Positions 5,774-63,649 of a stretch of DNA of 64,000 nucleotides are shown piece after piece. The DNA is from Candidatus Omnitrophota bacterium (GTDB lineage: Bacteria; Omnitrophota; Omnitrophia; Omnitrophales; JACROU01). The stretch spans positions 365,126 to 429,125 of the forward strand of contig JAJDCD010000023.1 in NCBI GenBank assembly GCA_029261035.1, read 5' to 3'. How positions within the stretch are numbered: the first letter of the stretch is position 1; every line of letters starts with the position of its first letter. The translations under genes were made by a program, and so were the position numbers. Below the pieces are notes generated by a model. It was given only the letters and a program-made list of their open reading frames with translations. It searched no databases and was not told where the DNA came from.

Positions 5774-5986
5774 ACCCCCATTCTTTTCCCTGTTTTTAAT
5801 AAATCCTAAATCCACTTTTCAAGCCCTAAACGCCTTTATCCCTGTAACTATAAAAGACCCTGTCAATAAACACGAGTTTCGTTATTCAGACCAATAACGA
5901 AACCCCTTATGACTAGTAAACAAGAACCCTCGATGGAGCTTCTTGTTTACAACCCCTAACACCCCTCTGACAAGTGTATAACGTAA

Positions 5987-6098
5987 GAGCCCAGGGAACA
6001 TTCTCCGCCCTGCCTACCGGCAGGCAGGCGCGAAACGTTGAATATGACCCTTCGGGCCAAAGCTGTTGTCTGAGCGCCGGAGAATGTTTCCTGGGCTC
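5987..6098. repeat. GC-rich structured element with 21-bp terminal inverted repeats enclosing a near-perfect 20-bp palindrome
   Basis: The arms are gagcccagggaacattctccg (5987-6007) and cggagaatgtttcctgggctc (6078-6098), with one mismatch between them. An internal palindrome cctgcctaccggcaggcagg lies between the arms. Confidence 0.6.
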
Positions 6099-6172
6099 CA
6101 ACCCACCTAGAAAACCCATAAATACCTAGAAAATCAAGGAATAGGCTAAGGATAGAATTCAAAACTTTAAAT

Positions 6173-6271
6173 GTATGCCAGGTCTAAAGACCCGGCACAC
6201 GCGGTACCTAACTTATGTGTGCCAAATAAAACTATGTGATTTGAATCTAACTCTATTTTTTGAGATCTAAC
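6173..6271 (+). repeat. ~95-bp intergenic repeat, copy A
   Basis: About 85% identical to 32544-32640 and, in reverse orientation, to 52633-52736. It ends in aatctaac-N10-gagatctaac, immediately 5' of a consensus promoter. Confidence 0.7.
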
Positions 6272-6277
6272 GTTGGC

Positions 6278-6306
6278 TTGACATACACCTTGGAAGTTCC
6301 TATAAT
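6278..6306 (+). promoter_or_regulatory. Consensus sigma70-type promoter (TTGACA-17-TATAAT) upstream of the yicC-remA-gmk-rpoZ-coaC-coaB block
   Basis: TTGACA is at 6278-6283, followed by a 17-nt spacer, and TATAAT is at 6301-6306. Confidence 0.6.
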
Positions 6307-8355: not shown

Positions 8356-8382
8356 TTTCCCTTGATTTTAAGGAGATAGACT

Positions 8383-13617: not shown

Positions 13618-13665
13618 CGCTTAGCATAGTGCGTGGCCAATTTCGCCACCCCGGCGAGTGAAGTG
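13618..13665 (-). pseudogene. Truncated copy of the tRNA-Leu 5' end plus upstream flank (about 45 bp duplicated)
   Basis: gtgcgtggccaatttcgccaccccggcgagtgaagtgac closely matches gcgtctgccaatttcgccaccccggcaatgaggtgac at 13458-13497. No anticodon stem or T-arm follows. A short hairpin (gtgaac…gttcac) follows the truncation point instead. Confidence 0.6.
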
Positions 13666-13857: not shown

Positions 13858-13903
13858 GTGACTGTCATCAGGCCGCACTCCGCGGACCATGGTGACTGTC
13901 ACC
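13858..13903. repeat. Hairpin element capped by GTGACTGTCA(C/T) dyads (copy 1)
   Basis: The sequence is gtgactgtcat-caggccgcactccgcggaccatg-gtgactgtcac. A related unit, gtgacagtcac, lies at 13979-13989. The architecture is the same as 24603-24648. Confidence 0.65.
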
Positions 13904-14067
13904 AAGTCTACTTTCTAATTCAACCAACAAAATTAGGAACAAAAGTAACCATCACCAAAACCATCTTATGGTAAGTAAGTGACAGTCACCCATATCAGGA
14001 AAAACACCTATCCAACACTGTTGAAACAGTTTAAAATAGAATTACATTTGTTGTATCTTGTGATTTT

Positions 14068-24556: not shown

Positions 24557-24602
24557 GATGTTGAAGAAAATATAATTGCTCCGGCGCTCAGACAGCACAA
24601 AA

Positions 24603-24648
24603 GTGACTGTCACCAGGCTGCGTTTACGCAGACCTTGGTGACTGTCAC
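24603..24648. repeat. Hairpin element capped by GTGACTGTCAC dyads (copy 2)
   Basis: The sequence is gtgactgtcac-caggctgcgtttacgcagaccttg-gtgactgtcac. The inner stem (ctgcg/cgcag) differs from copy 1 (ccgc/gcgg) but stays paired. Confidence 0.65.
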
Positions 24649-25198
24649 TTTTCACATCTTAAGCATGTTGCTTTAGGGAGAGTGTCTTAATGAGTGCAGT
24701 CTGTCCTTGGTCTGGGAGACACGCACTTTAGACACAGTTGCTGCGCAACAGTATCAAAAGTCCATGTCCCCGGCTTCCTACTTCGATTTCAAGTTTTAGG
24801 GGAAAGGTAAGATGTGTTGGAGGGAAGGATCTGAGGTCTTGCTTGTCCTTAGCAGAGGTTATTGGACATATTTTTTTTTACTTCAGATCCTTCCTCATAT
24901 TTTTTGATTAAAATGTAGAAGGAAGAGCTTCAAAGAATGCAGAGTTAAGGAAGGGACGGAAACCTTTTTCAACATAGCTATTGCTTCGTTGAAAATACTA
25001 TCTGCTGTTTCTTCAAAACTCTTCCTATATTAAAATTCTGACAGATGCTATATCTGTTTTCAAGGTTCTAATTTGAGCAAGAAAACCACCCATTTTTTTA
25101 TGTGTTTATTAAGTTTCTTAAAGCCAGTATACTAAAGAAGAAAGAGCTAAGAGTATATTCGAGGTATAAATAATTTTATAAGTGTAAAGGATTGAAAC

Positions 25199-32443: not shown

Positions 32444-32543
32444 TTTTGGACGTAAATAGTGGTAATATGTACCGCTCTAAAAAGGGTATAGGCTGTTTCT
32501 GCATTAGATTAATAAGGTAAGAATGGCAAATATAACTTTTTTT

Positions 32544-32640
32544 GTATGCCAGGTCTAAAGACTCGGCACACTAGGTACCTGACTTAGGGGTGCCAAGTAA
32601 GAGTATGTGATTTGAATCAAACTACAATTATATGAGATGT
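32544..32640 (+). repeat. ~95-bp intergenic repeat, copy B
   Basis: About 85% identical to 6173-6271. It ends about 35 nt before the ArsM-like start codon. Confidence 0.7.
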
Positions 32641-32675
32641 TATTATTTTGTCCTAGGCTGGGAAAGGAAACAGAA

Positions 32676-52538: not shown

Positions 52539-52623
52539 AGGAGAGGAAGGGATTCGAACCCCCGGTCCCGTGAGGGACAACAGTTTTCGAAACTGCCGCC
52601 TTCGACCACTCAGCCACCTCTCC
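52539..52623 (-). tRNA. tRNA-Ser (anticodon CGA)
   Basis: The cloverleaf folds by hand. The acceptor is GGAGAGG/CCUCUCC, the D-arm is Ser-type, the anticodon loop is UUCGAAA, the variable arm is long and the T-arm is GGGGG-TTCGAAT-CCCTT. CCA is not encoded. Confidence 0.75.
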
Positions 52624-52632
52624 ACCCCCAAA

Positions 52633-52736
52633 GTTAGATCTCATATTTTAACGTTAGATTCGTACCTACATAATGTTATTTGGCACTCACAAGTTTAGTA
52701 CCGAGTGTGCCAGGCCCCTCAATGGCCGGCCTGATA
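52633..52736 (-). repeat. ~95-bp intergenic repeat, copy C (reverse orientation)
   Basis: Its reverse complement matches copy A, including the aatctaac-N10-gagatctaac tail. That tail ends 6 nt upstream of the tRNA-Ser 5' end. Confidence 0.6.
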
Positions 52737-52946
52737 CACACATGTAACCATATAAATTCTAACCTATAGCTTGTACGCACATAAAACTATATCACAATGA
52801 ACAAGAATTTTGTGTATCCCCACAAACCAGTGTCCTATAAATAAAATCTTCATTCTTCTGGATATAAAGCCGATAAATAAACGTTGGCTGTCGAAATATA
52901 AAAGGACGTTTATTTTAGATTTAAACCTAGGAAAGGGGTGTTCCTC

Positions 52947-55925: not shown

Positions 55926-56015
55926 CTACCCCCTTCTTAAAGTGCCAGGCCATTCAAGCCTGCAAGCTTGAATGGCCTGGCACTTTAAGACAATTTTGTG
56001 GTGAATGGCCTGGCA
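55926..56015. repeat. Perfect palindrome with 21-bp arms plus an extra tandem copy of one arm
   Basis: The arms are aaagtgccaggccattcaagc / gcttgaatggcctggcacttt around a 7-nt loop. A further copy, gaatggcctggcacttt, lies 20 nt downstream. Confidence 0.7.
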
Positions 56016-56091
56016 CTTTGGGGGAATTCCCTGGTTTTCTCCTGATTCAAACGTGCTATAATGCGTGCCTCAAATTAATAAGGAGAAGCGC

Positions 56092-58576: not shown

Positions 58577-58800
58577 CCCTGGTGCTTCCGCCACGGCGGA
58601 CAGGCAGCAGGTACGAGCAAGCATCACCGAAGGTGAACAAGTCTTTAGAGTGAAGAAACAATTTATGTAAGCAAATAAAAAAGTTAATCCCTGGTAGCTC
58701 AGTTGGTACCTGCCTGCCGGCAGGCAGGGAGTAAGCTTCGCCCAAGGTGAACAAGCCTTTAGAGTGAAGAAACAATTTAAGTAAGCAAATAAAAAGTTAA
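58577..58800 (+). repeat. Tandem ~113-bp units, each a tRNA-Asn leader plus the first ~25 nt of the tRNA and capped by a GC-rich palindrome
   Basis: 58631-58708 is about 95% identical to 58744-58821, which runs into the intact tRNA. The truncated copy ends in the perfect palindrome cctgcctgccggcaggcagg at 58709-58728. An earlier, more degenerate unit ends …ttccctggtg + ccgccacggcgg at 58577-58600. Confidence 0.7.
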
Positions 58801-58876
58801 TCCCTGGTAGCTCAGTTGGTAGAGCAAGCGACTGTTAATCGCTTTGTCGCAGGTTCGAGTCCTGCCCGGGGAGCCA
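58801..58876 (+). tRNA. tRNA-Asn (anticodon GUU)
   Basis: The cloverleaf folds by hand. The acceptor is UCCCUGG/CCGGGGA, the anticodon loop is CUGUUAA and the T-arm is GCAGG-TTCGAGT-CCTGC. GCCA is encoded at the 3' end. Confidence 0.85.
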
Positions 58877-60520
58877 TTTAGAAGTAAATGCGAACTTTTT
58901 GGAATTTTCGTCGTAACTGACGGGAATTGAAGGAATTGCGTACATTGTCACGACAAACCTAAACCAAGAAGTTCTTAATTTACTAATAAAAGCCTCAGCT
59001 TCGGCTGGGGCTTTTACTTTTTTGTGGTTAACACTTTCAATACGAACTTCTTTGATTAGCAAGTTAATGAGTTGCTTCTTTTCTTCCATCGAAAGCTTGT
59101 GAATATATTCACCAAATCGAGCTAAGGTTTCTTGAACCGTATCACGCTCAAGCTGTTGAGAATTCTGCACATTTAACTCCACGCAAATTTTCTCAAGCTT
59201 CGCTGTAAGCGCATCCTTCATATCAGCCAGCTTACTAACTTCCTCAGACATTCTTTTAGTCGCCTTTGGGCTATCTTTAATAATTTGAATGAACTTCTCA
59301 GTTTCTTTATCGTTTCTTACAAGCTCCTTGCGGATAGAGTCTTCTTTCTTGAGCAACTTCTTCAATTCATCTGAGCACTCTTTGGTGGAAGCTTTGATAA
59401 CCTCATGAATAACTTTAGGTTGCTGACTTAGCTGTTTCAGATACTCAATGATCGTATTTTCTAGCAATCGAGCAGGTAACCTTCTCACGTTGCAAGAAGA
59501 GGCTTTTTTATAATGTCCGACTTCTGTGCAAACATAATAAAGGTAAGGGTTACCGTCTTTGTCCTTTTTCCCACTAGGCGTGGGAGTCATAGAACATCCA
59601 CAGTCTTTGCAAACAAGAAGGCCTTTTAGTAAATGGTGGTGCTTATCAGTCTCAGGGTTAATTTTTATTTTTTTATCAGGAGGTGATTTTTTCATAACGG
59701 CATTGGCTTTCTCATAAAGAGTTTTTGAGATTAATTTTTCATAGCGATGTTTTCCTAATTGTCCATTGTGAATCATATAGCCGTAGTAAAATGGATTTTT
59801 GATCATTCTATGAATACTGTCTTCACGAAACTTTTTTCCACCTATGTTGACTTGCTTGCCATTTTTTCGGGTAACCACTCGGGATTTGGTTAAATGACCT
59901 TCTTCAGCGAGACGCTTTGCAGTTTTAGACAAAGTCATACCGGCGGCAATACTTTCAAACATAAGCTTAATAGCTTTTGCTTCTTTCTTATTAACCGTTA
60001 ATTCCTTTTTCTCAATGTGATAGTCAAATCCATAAGGGATAAATCCACCACCCCATTTTCCACGCTCAAAGTTTGCTTGCATCTTATCGCTCGTTCGTTC
60101 ACTTATAAGTTCGCGTTCATATTCCGCAAAGCTTAGAAGGATGTTTAGCATAAGACGACCGGATGAACTCGAAGTATCAAAACTCTGAGTAGCAGAAGCA
60201 AACTCCACTTTCTTGCTCTCAAGCAATTTGTTGAATTCATAGAACTTAATAAGAGACCGGCTGACACGATCCACTTTATAAGTAATAACTGCGTCAACAT
60301 TACCAAGCTCGACCTCTGCCATAAGCTCTTTGATGCCGGGACGATCCAAGTCCTTACCTGAGAATCCGGGGTCTACAACAGTCTTTACGTGCTCCCAGCC
60401 CTGTTCCTTGCGTATAGCAATGAAATGCTGGCAGGTCTCAATCTGGTTCTCAATAGAGGTGATTTCGCCCTTATTCTGCTCTGCTGTAGAGACACGGGCG
60501 TATATATAGCATCTTTTCAT
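58835..60520 (-). CDS. Large serine recombinase (integrase)
   Basis: It has the N-terminal resolvase catalytic domain (YARVSTAEQ), a recombinase domain, a zinc ribbon (CKDCGC…C) and a C-terminal coiled coil. Its 3' end overlaps the tRNA-Asn on the opposite strand. Confidence 0.85.
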   Translation of the reverse strand: MKRCYIYARVSTAEQNKGEITSIENQIETCQHFIAIRKEQGWEHVKTVVDPGFSGKDLDRPGIKELMAEVELGNVDAVITYKVDRVSRSLIKFYEFNKLLESKKVEFASATQSFDTSSSSGRLMLNILLSFAEYERELISERTSDKMQANFERGKWGGGFIPYGFDYHIEKKELTVNKKEAKAIKLMFESIAAGMTLSKTAKRLAEEGHLTKSRVVTRKNGKQVNIGGKKFREDSIHRMIKNPFYYGYMIHNGQLGKHRYEKLISKTLYEKANAVMKKSPPDKKIKINPETDKHHHLLKGLLVCKDCGCSMTPTPSGKKDKDGNPYLYYVCTEVGHYKKASSCNVRRLPARLLENTIIEYLKQLSQQPKVIHEVIKASTKECSDELKKLLKKEDSIRKELVRNDKETEKFIQIIKDSPKATKRMSEEVSKLADMKDALTAKLEKICVELNVQNSQQLERDTVQETLARFGEYIHKLSMEEKKQLINLLIKEVRIESVNHKKVKAPAEAEAFISKLRTSWFRFVVTMYAIPSIPVSYDENSKKFAFTSKWLPGQDSNLRQSD

Positions 60521-60613
60521 AATTATTCCTTATTTCTGCATTGAAGGTTATTTTAATATACGAACTTAATAAATATAAAAAATCCCCTACTCATTTTTCA
60601 ATAATAGGGGATA

Positions 60614-61117
60614 TTAAATTAACTTTAGTTTAAGCAATCTTATCCACATAGCCTGTTCGCTAATATCATATTTCTTAGCCAAAGACTTGGCGTCCTTCGT
60701 GGATTTGAAGTCGTCTTTAATCGCAAGTGATGGCATTAAGAGCTCACTTGCAAAATGGTTAGCTTCTTGCTCTTGGAAAGCATTTTCACATGTTGTATCA
60801 AACATTCCATCGGCAACCTCTGCCGGGTCAAGTATTGAATCAACATGATGCCCAAGCATATAGTGCCCAATTTCATGAGCTATTGAGAATCGCTGTCTAT
60901 TTGTAGGATGATTCTTGTTCACTCCTACAACAATTAAGTCATTATCTTTCATAAGAACAGCAGATACTTTTTTTTCCGGAAAATCGTACGGTAGGTAATT
61001 AATATTCAGATAATTCAACAATTCTTTAACCGGAACTGGAGGAAAATCAACCTTCGAGTCTTTTAGAAGCTTTTGGGCGATCTTATTTGCAAGTGTATAT
61101 CGTGGTTTTAAAGCCAT
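60614..61117 (-). CDS. ImmA/IrrE-family zinc metallopeptidase
   Basis: It has a HEIGHYMLGHH (HEXXH) motif. The protein is 167 aa and is co-transcribed downstream of the XRE repressor. Confidence 0.75.
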   Translation of the reverse strand: MALKPRYTLANKIAQKLLKDSKVDFPPVPVKELLNYLNINYLPYDFPEKKVSAVLMKDNDLIVVGVNKNHPTNRQRFSIAHEIGHYMLGHHVDSILDPAEVADGMFDTTCENAFQEQEANHFASELLMPSLAIKDDFKSTKDAKSLAKKYDISEQAMWIRLLKLKLI

Positions 61118-61515
61118 TAATTCTTTTTCCCAAATTTCTTTCTTGCGAGTGCAGCGAAGTCGTTAAGAGATTTTTCAACTTCTTTATCATTCTTTTCCGA
61201 GCGCATTTTAAAAGCAAAACTATTTGTACTTGGTGTGGTCTTTGAATTCGGGAAAAACTCGTCGATTGAAGTGTCGAGGATGGCAGCTATTTTGGCAAGT
61301 ACTTCCACCTTAATGCCTCGATCTCCGTTCTCAAGATGGGCAATTGCTTGAGAAGTTTCATAGTGAATAGCTTTAGCCAAGTTTTCCTGAGAAAGCCCTT
61401 TTGCTAACCTAAACTCTTTAATTCTTCTTCCAGCATATTTTCGAATATGGATGTCATCGTTAATATTTTCGAGATTCATAGGAGCAATTTTACCTGTTTT
61501 AGGGGGTAAACTCAA
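61117..61515 (-). CDS. XRE-family helix-turn-helix transcriptional repressor
   Basis: It has the HTH motif GLSQENLAKAIHYETSQAIAHLENG. The protein is 132 aa. Confidence 0.75.
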   Translation of the reverse strand: MSLPPKTGKIAPMNLENINDDIHIRKYAGRRIKEFRLAKGLSQENLAKAIHYETSQAIAHLENGDRGIKVEVLAKIAAILDTSIDEFFPNSKTTPSTNSFAFKMRSEKNDKEVEKSLNDFAALARKKFGKKN

Positions 61516-61546
61516 TTAAAATGGTTCTTGTATCAACATTGATCAA

Positions 61547-61590
61547 AATATGGTTTCTATGCTTGACCAGAAACCATATTTTGGTAAAAT
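61547..61590 (+). promoter_or_regulatory. Rightward promoter TTGACC-16-TAAAAT embedded in a perfect 12-bp inverted repeat (putative operator)
   Basis: aatatggtttct (61547-58) and agaaaccatatt (61569-80) flank TTGACC (61563-68). TAAAAT is at 61585-90. The site lies between the divergent repressor gene and the + strand genes. Confidence 0.55.
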
Positions 61591-61735
61591 AAAGCCGAGA
61601 GTCGAATTAGCTTAATCGCATAACCCGTTTGACTCTCGGCTGCTGTTTAGCGATAGTGGTCATTATAAACAGGCTAAAGATCTCGTCAAGAAGAAGGTTC
61701 TTCTTGATTTCTTGGGTTATCGGAGGAAAAAGAGC

Positions 61736-61876
61736 ATGGCTAATAAAGAAAGAGAAACTAGACTTCAAGGTCGAGATGCTAAGAACGGACAGTTTATTAC
61801 CAGAAAAGAAGCTGAACGTCGTCCAAATACAACGGTAGTTGAGAGAGTTCCTCTACCTGGAAAAGGACGCAAGTAA
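61736..61876 (+). CDS. Small basic protein (46 aa), not in the ORF track
   Basis: GGAGG lies 10 nt upstream of the ATG. It encodes MANKERETRLQGRDAKNGQFITRKEAERRPNTTVVERVPLPGKGRK and is the first gene after the operator/promoter. The overlapping ORF-track call at 61629-61838 lies in another frame and is less convincing. Confidence 0.4.
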   Translation: MANKERETRLQGRDAKNGQFITRKEAERRPNTTVVERVPLPGKGRK

Positions 61877-62085
61877 CTCGTTCTTCCAAAGTCAACCAAA
61901 AGCCCTAATGGTGTAAAGCCATTAGGGCTTTCTCCATTAAAGATTTTACCTCGTCTATATATAAGCTTCACAAAGCCCATACAACGTAACCACGAAGATG
62001 CTCGCTTAGAGCTCCGTGATCTATCCGTCATTTCCTCGCAGGCACCCTCGCTTTTATTCTTCTGAATAACCACAGGAGAATAAAG

Positions 62086-62583
62086 ATGAATCATCAATCC
62101 AATCTTACAAACGAAGAAATCACCATCATTAACCGCGTATCTGGCAAGTTCCTAAAGCGAGTGAAGTGGAATCATCATTGGGAACTAGAGGACATGCGCC
62201 AAGACCTTATTGTCTTTTGGCTTACCAAGAAGCAATCTGGCTGGAAACGACCCACCGAGTGGCAGGGGGCAATGGGCATATGTCTCATTCTCCACCTCAT
62301 TGATCTGCAAAAGAAAGAATGTGCAGATAAACGTCAATCTCTTGGAAGCATGACTTCGCTCAATCAGCTCATAGAAAAGGGATTTGATATTCCTGATGAA
62401 TCGGAGCAATCCGCATCACTTTCTGATTTTTTAAACATGCTGAATTCCAGAGAAAGAAACATCTGCCATTTATTCTTGGGCGGAAAAAATAAATCGCAAG
62501 TAGCCTCATCCATCAAGCGTAGTCGTCCCTATCTCAATCAAAGATTGAAATATGTCAGACACCTCGCGGAGCAATATCTATGA
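62086..62583 (+). CDS. Sigma-70 region-4-like DNA-binding protein (small sigma-factor-like regulator)
   Basis: A C-terminal SRERNICHLFLGGKNKSQVASSIKRSRPYLNQRLKYV resembles the sigma70_r4 HTH. The N-terminal part is not obviously region 2. Confidence 0.45.
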   Translation: MNHQSNLTNEEITIINRVSGKFLKRVKWNHHWELEDMRQDLIVFWLTKKQSGWKRPTEWQGAMGICLILHLIDLQKKECADKRQSLGSMTSLNQLIEKGFDIPDESEQSASLSDFLNMLNSRERNICHLFLGGKNKSQVASSIKRSRPYLNQRLKYVRHLAEQYL

Positions 62584-62642
62584 AACCTCACTTTACATTT
62601 TGTCGATTTTTTTCGGATCAGTAGGTAAAGGAGGAAAACGAA

Positions 62643-62792
62643 ATGCAGGATTTGAGATGCCCTAATTGCAATAAAAAATTAGCAGAAGTGCCGGAGGATT
62701 TTTTTGAGACTGAGGAAGGAAAAGATGCGCTTAGGAATAAAAGAAAAGTTTTCATCAAATGCACTAAATGCAAACGAATTATCGAATTTTAA
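62643..62792 (+). CDS. Com-like zinc-ribbon protein (49 aa; CxxC…CxxC), not in the ORF track
   Basis: It encodes MQDLRCPNCNKKLAEV…IKCTKCKRIIEF, and AGGAGGAAAA lies 8 nt upstream. The pattern is that of phage Mu Com-type translational regulators. Confidence 0.5.
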   Translation: MQDLRCPNCNKKLAEVPEDFFETEEGKDALRNKRKVFIKCTKCKRIIEF

Positions 62793-62953
62793 ATACCCCC
62801 TACACCGCACAAAAGTGTTTGTGGGCTTCACATTCTTAACTGCTTTCCTCCCTTGTGCTTATGAAACGCACATTGCCTGACCTCACTCTCTCTTCGTAGA
62901 TAGATCGAGGTCAGGTAAACGGGAGGAAAGCTAAAGAACACAGGAGGAAAGAA

Positions 62954-63649
62954 ATGAAAATTACTAAAAGGGATATTGAATTAATGGGGTGGGTTTTAGA
63001 ACAGAAAGTAATGACAAGAAAACAAATTAGGCAAATATTTTGGAAGGATATATCAGATAAAAGTATTGAGGATTATCGAAGGTTGAACGAATTGAAGAAA
63101 GAAGGTTATTTAAAAACAAGTAAGAAAGAAATCTATAAGGAAATTCTTTATTTGGTGACCGGAAAGGGGGTTAAGCAGTTACGGGCTTTTTCGAGAAATA
63201 GAGGTTTGTGTGAATTATGTGATGCGGGTTATTCAAACTATAAGCATGACGGCGTGGTTACGGATATTCGGGTAATGTTGCACAAGTGGGGTTATGAAGA
63301 TTGGGTCTCCGAACGGGTTATGGCAAGAAGGAATGATTTAAGACGATTGCCGGACGGCATCATCCATCATCGGGGAAAGTATTTCGCCATTGAATATGAA
63401 GCGACTCAAAAATCAAAATCGCGATATCGGGAAATCTTCTACAACTACGAATTGGATGACAGCATTGACCATGTTGTCTATGTAGTAGATACGCCGGAGT
63501 TGGTGACTAAGATGAGTGAGCTGGCTGCAACATGTGGAAAGATTTTTTTCGTACAACTTGAAGACTTGGAAGAGAATCAGGTGAATGCTTCTCTTTCAAA
63601 TGAGTTCGATCAACTTACCTTGCATGAATTATTAGAGGTGAGAAATTGA
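62954..63649 (+). CDS. Replication-relaxation-family-like protein (winged-helix N-terminus)
   Basis: The N-terminus ITKRDIELMGWVLEQKVMTRKQIRQIFW…YRRLNELKKEGYL matches the Replic_Relax pattern (LT.RD..IL..L…LT..QI…F……RRL..L…G). Confidence 0.45.
   Translation: MKITKRDIELMGWVLEQKVMTRKQIRQIFWKDISDKSIEDYRRLNELKKEGYLKTSKKEIYKEILYLVTGKGVKQLRAFSRNRGLCELCDAGYSNYKHDGVVTDIRVMLHKWGYEDWVSERVMARRNDLRRLPDGIIHHRGKYFAIEYEATQKSKSRYREIFYNYELDDSIDHVVYVVDTPELVTKMSELAATCGKIFFVQLEDLEENQVNASLSNEFDQLTLHELLEVRN

What the first reader, a model, noticed from the sequence alone, without database searches (positions are those of the whole stretch)
6173..6271. ~95-bp repeat family placed immediately upstream of a promoter, a gene start and a tRNA
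Three copies share ~85% identity: 6173-6271 and 32544-32640 on the plus strand and 52633-52736 reversed. Each ends with the tail aatctaac-N10-gagatctaac, 6-35 nt upstream of a functional element. Copy A precedes the consensus TTGACA-17-TATAAT promoter of the yicC block. Copy B precedes the ArsM-like gene. Copy C precedes the tRNA-Ser 5' end in matching orientation. Internal short hairpins (ggcacac…gtgtgcc) are present. The position and orientation bias suggest a regulatory module, a UP-element-like sequence or a promoter-bearing MITE rather than random repeats.
Basis: seen in the sequence. Interest (0 to 1): 0.55.

Follow-up and report, generated by a model that had tools for sequence, protein, structure and literature searches.

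The report
Small mobile intergenic repeat in Omnitrophota
The three look-alike stretches are real copies of a small non-coding repeat that has inserted itself between genes in this uncultured bacterium and a relative, but nothing shows it acts as a promoter or regulatory module, so it is an ordinary kind of genomic passenger from a little-studied phylum.

Summary
The window has exactly three copies of one repeat: A 6140-6277 (+), B 32511-32640 (+) and C 52628-52770 (-). They are about 135 nt long, not 95. Identity is 66-82%, not 85%. The quoted tail is present in A and C only.

The host is an Omnitrophota MAG. A fourth copy, D, lies in its nearest available relative at a different site. D is antisense to both neighbouring genes and supplies the stop codon of rpoZ.

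Presence and absence are reciprocal. Sites A and B are short, empty spacers in the relative and in more distant relatives. Site D is a 27-nt spacer in the window. These are therefore derived insertions.

The yicC TTGACA-17-TATAAT promoter exists unchanged in the relative without the repeat. No promoter-like site sits at a conserved position inside the element. Copies B and D lie inside operon-like gene pairs. The claimed position and orientation rule is not supported.

The element is much better conserved between the two genomes (78%) than neutral sites are (30-44%). It keeps two hairpins, and the first also occurs alone as a REP-like palindrome.

Best reading: a new family of small non-autonomous dispersed repeats, like ERIC, REP or MITEs, with an unknown mobilising enzyme.

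The parts
6140..6277 (+). Copy A, long form (about 138 nt). The ~105-nt core shared with the relative's copy is 6173-6277.
   Evidence: cmsearch 126 bits
6173..6200 (+). Hairpin HP1 in copy A (6173-6184 pairs with 6189-6200, loop TAAA). It is kept in all four copies with one compensatory pair. On the + strand it has two A.C mismatches, which are G.U on the - strand.
6203..6223 (+). Candidate hairpin HP2' in copy A (GGTACCTA / TGTGTGCC). It has an invariant U.G pair and two pairs with compensatory change among the four copies.
6244..6277 (+). AT-rich 3' tail with the direct repeat ATCTAAC (6245-6251 and 6265-6271) and the terminal TTGGC. Conserved in A, C and D, degenerate in B.
32511..32640 (+). 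Copy B, between the DUF2064 gene (ends 32443) and the arsM-like gene (likely start 32676). The 3' end is truncated or diverged after TGAGAT.
   Evidence: empty sites
52628..52770 (-). Copy C, the most divergent, with an 11-nt insertion in the HP1 loop. It ends 4 nt before the tRNA-Ser 5' end.
8356..8382 (+). Empty site: the 27-nt rpoZ-coaBC spacer. The relative (L002 12027-12140, - strand) carries copy D here.
6278..6306 (+). Context, not part of the repeat: the native yicC promoter TTGACA-17-TATAAT, conserved in the relative that lacks the repeat.
52539..52623 (-). Context: tRNA-Ser(CGA) immediately downstream of copy C.
55935..56024 (.). Stand-alone HP1-like palindrome (AAAGTGCCAGGCC...GGCCTGGCACTTT) plus a half copy at 56002-56024. 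It has the same arm motif as HP1 of the element.

Best explanation
The three stretches are copies of a small, non-coding, non-autonomous dispersed repeat. Its core is about 105 nt, and this genome's form adds a 30-nt 5' extension. It inserts into intergenic DNA of one Omnitrophota lineage.

Shown:
- The family has copies in two genomes at non-orthologous sites.
- Each filled site is a short, empty spacer in the other genome and in outgroups, so the copies are derived insertions.
- The element starts with a GC-rich hairpin that also occurs alone as a REP-like palindrome. A second short hairpin follows, then an AT-rich tail with two TCTAAC repeats.
- The element is far better conserved between the genomes than neutral DNA.

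Inferred:
- It is mobilised in trans by an enzyme encoded elsewhere. The hairpin at the very 5' boundary, the weak or absent terminal inverted repeats and the lack of target duplications fit a hairpin-recognising (HUH / RAYT / IS200-like) route better than a classical DDE MITE route. This is not established.
- Copies persist where insertion is tolerated: upstream of a promoter, between cistrons, and upstream of a tRNA.
- Any effect on neighbours is a by-product of the hairpins in the transcript (mRNA stability or partial termination, as for REP and ERIC). It is not a built-in promoter.
- Copy C is probably transcribed as part of a long pre-tRNA-Ser leader that RNase P removes.
For: 1. The family is real. 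There are 3 core-pattern matches against 0 expected. nhmmer E-values are 1e-39 to 1e-48 and cmsearch scores 107-126 bits.

2. A fourth copy was found with an HMM built without it: L002 12031-12138, minus strand, E 1.5e-22.

3. Filled and empty sites are reciprocal.
- ispB-yicC spacer: 567 nt in the window, 130 nt in L002, 116 nt in L011.
- DUF2064-arsM spacer: 232 nt in the window, 84 nt in L006, 8 nt in L008, overlapping genes in L013.
- rpoZ-coaBC spacer: 118 nt with copy D in L002, 27 nt in the window, 6 nt in L011, 44 nt in L010.

4. Insertion D rewrote a gene end. RpoZ of the relative ends ...KKKKKKPQS*, with PQS* encoded by the reverse complement of the element's CTAACTTTGGGG end. The window's RpoZ ends ...KKEKKKK*.

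5. Conservation exceeds the neutral level. A-D identity is 78%, B-D 75% and C-D 71%. Four-fold degenerate sites of five orthologous genes are 30-44% identical.

6. The hairpins are kept. On the + strand 94% of cells are paired, and 3 pairs have changes on both sides (14 of 500 shuffles reach this).

7. HP1-like palindromes occur alone at window 55935-55990, L002 13811-13842 and 14533-14567, and L006 4523-4562. The motif GCCAGG-N5-30-CCNGGC matches 4 times against 0.06 expected.

8. Nothing matches in Rfam, plasmids, phages, E. coli genomes or viral contigs.
Against:
- No target-site duplication is recognisable at any copy.
- The terminal inverted repeat is marginal. It is 20 nt at 75% in A and 14 nt at 79% in C, with 220 and 258 of 2000 shuffles doing as well. 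B and D lack it.
- No transposase or RAYT was found among the 20 window ORFs scanned, so the mobilising enzyme is unknown.
- Conservation along the whole length between two genomes whose neutral sites are saturated is more than a decaying passenger needs. This leaves room for a host-level or RNA-level function.
- No empty-site comparison could be made for copy C.
Confidence: 0.62

Rival explanations
1. Mobile promoter or regulatory module. The element carries an outward-facing promoter, UP-like sequence or factor-binding sites at its 3' tail. It rewires the gene downstream of it in the sense orientation.
For: - All three window copies face a downstream gene, promoter or tRNA.
- tRNA-Ser starts 4 nt after copy C. 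No other promoter-like site at 9 of 12 matches exists in the 314-nt spacer, so its promoter must lie in or upstream of the element.
- A weak TTTATG-18-TAGAAT (8/12) has its -10 in the 5' extension of copy C.
- The tail has two TCTAAC repeats 20 nt apart, a spacing typical of protein-binding sites.
- Repeats reused upstream of unrelated genes are a described phenomenon (PMC3575422).
Against: - The yicC promoter is intact and identical in layout in the relative without the element.
- No sense-strand -35/-10 pair lies at a conserved position in the four copies, even at 8/12.
- Copy D is antisense, with its tail against the 3' end of rpoZ.
- Copy B lies between genes that are 8 nt apart or overlapping in relatives.
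- B lacks the conserved tail.
- The orientation statistics carry no weight (two informative copies).
Confidence: 0.12
2. A family of functional structured RNAs (paralogous small RNAs or cis-acting leader elements) maintained by selection in the host. Gain and loss at different loci would mimic mobility.
For: - Conservation is 71-78% between genomes whose four-fold sites are 30-44% identical.
- Two hairpins are kept, with three compensatory pairs on the + strand.
- HP2' has an invariant U.G pair, which would be a C.A mismatch on the other strand.
- There are -10-like hexamers (TAGAAT, AAGAAT) 15-25 nt upstream of HP1 in A, B and C.
Against: - No Rfam match even at E up to 10.
- No intrinsic terminator follows any copy.
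- The strand evidence conflicts. HP1 of A and B folds better on the - strand (z -3.9 and -3.6, against -2.0 and -1.5 on the + strand). The - strand consensus is equally well paired at 95%.
- With four sequences, a count of 14 of 500 shuffles is within the false-positive range stated for that control.
- The copies lie in front of unrelated targets (an RNase, a methyltransferase, a tRNA), and one is antisense inside an operon.
Confidence: 0.18
3. Remnant of segmental duplication, or chance similarity of AT-rich spacers, with no mobility or function.
For: The spacers are AT-rich, and the genome carries many short palindromes.
Against: - E-values of 1e-22 to 1e-48.
- The flanks are unrelated.
- A copy exists in a second genome at a non-orthologous site.
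Confidence: 0.02

Closest known systems
ERIC / IRU (enterobacterial repetitive intergenic consensus, 127 bp)
   Same: - About 100-130 bp and non-coding.
- Intergenic and often inside transcription units.
- Either orientation occurs.
- Copies sit at different loci in related genera while the sequence stays well conserved.
- Filled and empty sites are seen.
- Hairpin-forming transcripts affect mRNA stability (PMC2229807).
   Different: - No sequence similarity: no blastn match in 5,426 E. coli genomes.
- ERIC is an imperfect palindrome over its whole length. Here the hairpins occupy only the 5' 50 nt, and the 3' half is unstructured and AT-rich.
- ERIC has TA ends and target duplications, which are not seen here.
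REP / BIME / REPIN elements mobilised by RAYT (IS200-like HUH) transposases
   Same: - A GC-rich palindrome of 25-40 nt (HP1) defines one end of the element.
- That palindrome also occurs alone at several intergenic sites in both genomes.
- There are no TIRs and no target duplication.
   Different: - HP1 starts GTAT/GTGT, not the REP-defining GTAG.
- The element carries a 70-nt non-palindromic tail.
- No RAYT gene was seen in the sequence available.
- Copy number is unknown.
Correia / NEMIS elements of Neisseria (promoter-bearing MITEs)
   Same: Similar size (about 107-155 bp), intergenic position close to gene starts, co-transcription with neighbours, and use of filled/empty site comparison to define them.
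   Different: - Correia elements have 24-26 bp TIRs, TA duplications, an IHF site and demonstrated promoters at their ends.
- Here the TIRs are marginal.
- No duplication is seen.
- No conserved -35/-10 is found.
CIR (Caulobacter/Brucella intergenic repeats) and YPAL/RU-2 of Yersinia
   Same: These are small dispersed repeats that lack classical TIRs. Their 5' and 3' parts fold independently, or their inverted repeats are internal (Table 1 of PMC2229807).
   Different: - No sequence relation was tested.
- CIRs carry conserved GANTC methylation sites. Here GAATC is present in A, B and C but is CAATC in D.
Putative mobile promoters (Matus-Garcia, Nijveen and van Passel 2012)
   Same: The window copies would meet the operational definition: at least 80% identity over at least 50 nt upstream of unrelated genes (A-B 81%; definition).
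   Different: That class is defined by position only. Its authors note that many members are not promoters. Here the promoter function was tested by motif and by comparative context and was not found.

Membership tests
MITE (TIR-type non-autonomous transposon) | Small (<300 bp), non-coding, several dispersed copies in intergenic DNA | tested here: met
   105-138 nt. Three copies in 64 kb plus one in 42 kb of the relative. All are intergenic.
MITE (TIR-type non-autonomous transposon) | Terminal inverted repeats | tested here: inconclusive
   A has 20 nt at 75% and C has 14 nt at 79%. Shuffles reach these scores 220 and 258 times in 2000. B has none, and D lacks the 5' partner altogether.
MITE (TIR-type non-autonomous transposon) | Target-site duplication (often TA) flanking the element | tested here: not met
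   No direct repeat flanks A, B, C or D when the flanks are compared with empty sites. Old insertions could have lost it.
MITE (TIR-type non-autonomous transposon) | Filled versus empty orthologous sites | tested here: met
   Three sites, reciprocal between the two genomes, with outgroups empty.
MITE (TIR-type non-autonomous transposon) | A full-length IS with matching ends encoding the transposase | not testable with these tools
   No matching end pairs in the window and no transposase in the 20 ORFs scanned. The rest of the genome could not be read.
REP / REPIN (RAYT-mobilised) | Short GC-rich palindrome, dispersed, alone or in pairs | tested here: met
   HP1 and its stand-alone relatives. 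GCCAGG-N-CCNGGC matches 4 times against 0.06 expected.
REP / REPIN (RAYT-mobilised) | Conserved GTAG tetranucleotide at the 5' foot of the hairpin | tested here: not met
   The feet read GTAT (A, B), GTGT (C, D) and GGTG/AGTG in the solo copies.
REP / REPIN (RAYT-mobilised) | RAYT (Y1/HUH transposase) gene in the genome | not testable with these tools
   None among the window ORFs scanned.
ERIC | Sequence similarity to the ERIC consensus | tested here: not met
   No blastn match (word 11, E <= 0.01) in the E. coli complete genomes, which carry ERIC copies.
Promoter-bearing repeat / UP element | -35/-10 hexamers (or an A/T tract at -40 to -60 of a promoter) at a fixed position in every copy, in the sense of the downstream gene | tested here: not met
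   - Only A is followed by a promoter, and that promoter is ancestral.
- No conserved sense-strand site at 8/12 or better.
- The tRNA starts 4 nt after C.
- D is antisense.
Any Rfam RNA family | Covariance-model match | tested here: not met
   Nothing at the gathering threshold. Only chance-level eukaryotic snoRNA/miRNA models at E 0.8-9.

The most novel reading that the evidence does not exclude
The element is not a passive passenger. It is a mobile structured nucleic-acid module under purifying selection across Omnitrophota genera. It could be a hairpin-plus-tail RNA that the host uses, for example as an intercistronic processing or stability signal or a protein-binding platform. It could instead be the substrate of a so far undescribed hairpin-directed mobilisation system that also spreads the solo GTGCCAGG palindromes. 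The evidence in favour is 71-78% identity between genomes whose silent sites are saturated. In addition, the within-genome divergence of copy C from A and B exceeds the between-genome divergence of D from A.
Probability: 0.15. Interest if true: 0.55.

Novelty: new member of a known kind. Interest (0 to 1): 0.3.

Why it matters
Small dispersed repeats are barely described outside cultivated Proteobacteria and Firmicutes. My two full-text searches found no description of such repeats in Omnitrophota. A defined family with filled and empty sites has several uses:
- It marks recent genome rearrangement in these ultra-small, uncultured bacteria.
- It warns annotators. One copy has extended the annotated arsM start, and another rewrote the RpoZ C-terminus.
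- It gives a handle for finding the enzyme that moves hairpin-ended repeats in this phylum.

It does not reveal a new regulatory mechanism.

Tried and rejected
- **Core-pattern scans.** A strict core pattern gave 0 hits in 185,579 species genomes and 241 million metagenome records. A relaxed pattern gave 2 chance hits in genomes. A pattern for the 3' half gave 0 hits in metagenomes. These patterns were too strict, because they also missed copy D, which nhmmer later found.
- **Viral contigs.** 11 pattern hits, all chance: GC-rich contexts with no flanking similarity.
- **Plasmids, phages, E. coli genomes.** No blastn match.
- **Sigma-54 promoter** (TGGCAC-N5-TTGC) on either strand: the -12 GC is absent or the spacing is wrong (read from the sequence).
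- **IHF site, dif/Xer site, ECF-sigma promoter in the tail.** Each was considered from the sequence, and none fits its consensus or spacing.
- **Intrinsic terminator reading of HP1.** No U-run follows it on either strand in A, B or C.
- **Start-stop mini-ORF.** ATG-TGA in A and B and ATG-TAG in C, but no Shine-Dalgarno sequence, and D does not keep it.
- **Third empty-site test (tRNA-Ser).** The neighbouring channel protein has no syntenic ortholog among the hits. The best candidate contig lacks the tRNA.
- **D's left flank.** I considered that it (CCCTTAAATGT) might be homologous to the 5' extension of copy A. I rejected this because it aligns with the ancestral coaB ribosome-binding spacer of the window.

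Full report
**1. The observation**

Reading the three stretches and aligning them confirms a real repeat.
- The core pattern GGCACACnnGGTACCTnACTTAnGnGTGCCAA occurs three times in the window. The expectation from shuffles is 0.00.
- An HMM of the copies run at maximum sensitivity, and later a covariance model, find these three and no others in 64 kb.

- Similarity between A and B runs from 6140 to 6266 (32511-32638). A and C align to 6276 (52628). The unit in this genome is therefore about 135 nt, not 95.
- Identities are 81% (A-B), 78% (A-C) and 74% (B-C) in local alignments. Over the common core they are 82/74/66%.
- The tail aatctaac-N10-gagatctaac is present in A and C. B diverges after TGAGAT.
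- The consensus promoter after A (6278-6306, 12/12) and the tRNA-Ser(CGA) after C (52539-52623, minus strand) are as described.

**2. Host and relatives**

- YicC, the ArsM-like methyltransferase and their best hits place the window in an Omnitrophota MAG.
- The source is a 630-kb NCBI contig. I could reach it only as a 4-kb Logan contig identical to the window.
- The nearest genome available is a 2.17-Mb JGI metagenome contig. Its YicC is 67% and its ArsM 78% identical, and gene order is conserved.
- More distant relatives were sampled at the same loci.

**3. Filled and empty sites**

| Site | Window | Nearest relative | More distant relatives |
|---|---|---|---|
| ispB-yicC (copy A) | 567 nt | 130 nt (L002) | 116 nt (L011) |
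| DUF2064-arsM (copy B) | 232 nt | 84 nt (L006) | 8 nt (L008); genes overlap (L013) |
| rpoZ-coaBC (copy D) | 27 nt | 118 nt with copy D (L002) | 6 nt (L011); 44 nt (L010) |

- At the yicC site the relative keeps the same TTGACA-17-TATAAT promoter and has no repeat.
- At the arsM site both flanks of copy B align with the relative's spacer. This brackets an insertion of roughly 135-160 nt.
- The HMM built from the three window copies finds a fourth copy, D, in the relative. It lies at L002 12031-12138 on the minus strand, with E 1.5e-22. It sits between rpoZ and coaBC.
- The relative's RpoZ ends ...KKKKKKPQS*. The last three codons and the stop come from the reverse complement of the element's CTAACTTTGGGG end.
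- The remaining spacer left of D aligns with the window's ribosome-binding spacer. D therefore begins exactly at the foot of the first hairpin and lacks the 30-nt 5' extension shared by A, B and C.

Three independent derived insertions, reciprocal between two genomes, are the main evidence that the element moves. About 73 kb from more distant relatives contains no copy.

**4. Anatomy**

The core of about 105 nt (A: 6173-6277) has three parts.
- **HP1**, a 10-12 bp GC-rich hairpin (A: 6173-6184 with 6189-6200).
- **HP2'**, a second possible hairpin (A: 6203-6210 with 6216-6223).
- **An AT-rich tail** with two TCTAAC motifs 20 nt apart, ending in TTGG(G/C).

On the plus strand 94% of pair cells are standard pairs. 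Three pairs change on both sides, and 14 of 500 shuffles reach this value. On the minus strand an equally well paired alternative exists with one such pair (110 of 500). Single-sequence folds favour the minus strand for A and B (z -3.9 and -3.6), because two A.C mismatches become G.U there. HP2', however, has an invariant U.G pair that works only on the plus strand. The strand of any RNA-level function is therefore undecided. A hairpin that works in either orientation, or in single-stranded DNA, fits best.

HP1-like palindromes (GGTGCCAGGC...GCCTGGCACC) also occur alone, at window 55935-55990, L002 13811-13842 and 14533-14567, and L006 4523-4562. The 5' module is thus a REP-like unit in its own right.

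Terminal inverted repeats can be drawn in A (20 nt, 75%) and C (14 nt, 79%). They are not significant against shuffles, and B and D lack them. I see no target duplication.

**5. Conservation**

Four-fold degenerate sites of five orthologous genes are 30-44% identical between the two genomes, and composition alone gives 26%. Copy D is 78%, 75% and 71% identical to A, B and C. C is further from A and B than D is. Because the sites are not orthologous, one of two things must hold:
- a source copy has been kept under constraint in both lineages, or
- the element was exchanged between them more recently than they split.

This is the one feature that goes beyond a decaying passenger. It underlies the novel reading given separately.

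**6. The regulatory interpretation**

- The promoter next to A predates the insertion.
- Consensus scans find no sense-strand promoter inside any copy. A relaxed scan (at least 8/12) finds none at a conserved position. The only sense-strand candidate is a weak TTTATG-18-TAGAAT whose -10 lies in the 5' extension of C.
- B and D sit inside operon-like gene pairs, D in antisense.
- Only A and B are informative for orientation, because C lies in a divergent spacer.
- tRNA-Ser must be transcribed from within or upstream of C, since it starts 4 nt after the element. The likeliest reading is that C forms a long leader removed by RNase P. This is inference.
- The ispB-yicC spacer also holds other palindromic insertions absent from relatives (see section 8). 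It looks like a permissive landing zone upstream of a promoter, not a designed module.

**7. Comparison with known families**

- There is no match to Rfam, plasmids, phages or E. coli genomes. The viral-contig hits are chance.
- By behaviour the closest analogues are ERIC, REP/BIME and the TIR-less small repeats CIR and YPAL, as summarised in PMC2229807.
- The window copies would also qualify operationally as 'putative mobile promoters' (PMC3575422). That label is positional only.
- I do not file the element as a classical MITE. TIRs are inconclusive and target duplication is not met.
- I do not file it as REP either. There is no GTAG foot, and no RAYT could be looked for genome-wide.

**8. 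Verdict**

This is a new family of small dispersed intergenic repeats in an under-studied phylum. It is real and almost certainly mobile. There is no evidence that it is a promoter or UP-like module. Interest is modest. The unusual cross-genome conservation and the hairpin-at-the-boundary architecture are the points worth following with complete genomes.

Noticed in passing
window 5987-6100 (+), with further hairpins at 5874-5905 and about 5917-5960: A 114-nt GC-rich palindromic unit lies just upstream of copy A. It has 21-bp closing arms (GAGCCCAGGGAACATTCTCCG / CGGAGAATGTTTCCTGGGCTC) and two inner hairpins. Its fold is -67 kcal/mol with z -7.0. There is no Rfam hit at E<=10, and the relatives' ispB-yicC spacers lack it. 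It could be another MITE-like insertion or an unknown ncRNA.
   Followed up: partly
window 6009-6028 and 58709-58728; L006 13232-13251; L010 1789-1809: A second REP-like palindrome family, CCTGCCTRCCGGCAGGCAGG, is shared by three Omnitrophota genomes. It matches 4 times in the window against 0.00 expected. In L010 it sits directly before the yicC promoter.
   Followed up: partly
window 55935-56024: A 28-nt-arm near-perfect palindrome plus a 33-nt tandem half-copy lies upstream of dnaX. It carries the same GTGCCAGGCC/GGCCTGGCAC arms as the first hairpin of the repeat.
   Followed up: partly
window 58615-58821: A 113-nt tandem duplication includes the upstream region and the first 21 nt of tRNA-Asn. 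The truncated copy is followed by the CCTGCCTGCCGGCAGGCAGG palindrome.
   Followed up: no
window 58835-63649: An integrative-element-like block lies next to tRNA-Asn. It has a large serine recombinase (58835-60517, -), an ImmA/IrrE peptidase, an Xre-type HTH and a Replic_Relax protein. Cumulative GC skew flattens from about 58 kb.
   Followed up: partly
window 13636-13660, 13891-13902, 13979-13990, 24599-24652: There is a partial duplicate of the 5' half of tRNA-Leu between tRNA-Cys and tRNA-Leu. A third palindrome family, GGTGACTGTCACC, recurs in long spacers.
   Followed up: no
window 32637-32675: The deposited ArsM-like protein (418 aa, P0121) starts at 32637, overlapping the last few bases of copy B. 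Homologs (383-404 aa) and the GGAAAGGAAACAGAA-ATG context point to 32676 as the real start, so the repeat has probably caused a 13-codon over-extension.
   Followed up: partly
L006 4216-4630: The relative has a 414-nt spacer full of long inverted repeats (for example tgtcatcccggacttgatccgg... / ...ccggatcaagtccggaatgaca), plus an 18-bp perfect palindrome with the GGTGCCAGGC arms.
   Followed up: no
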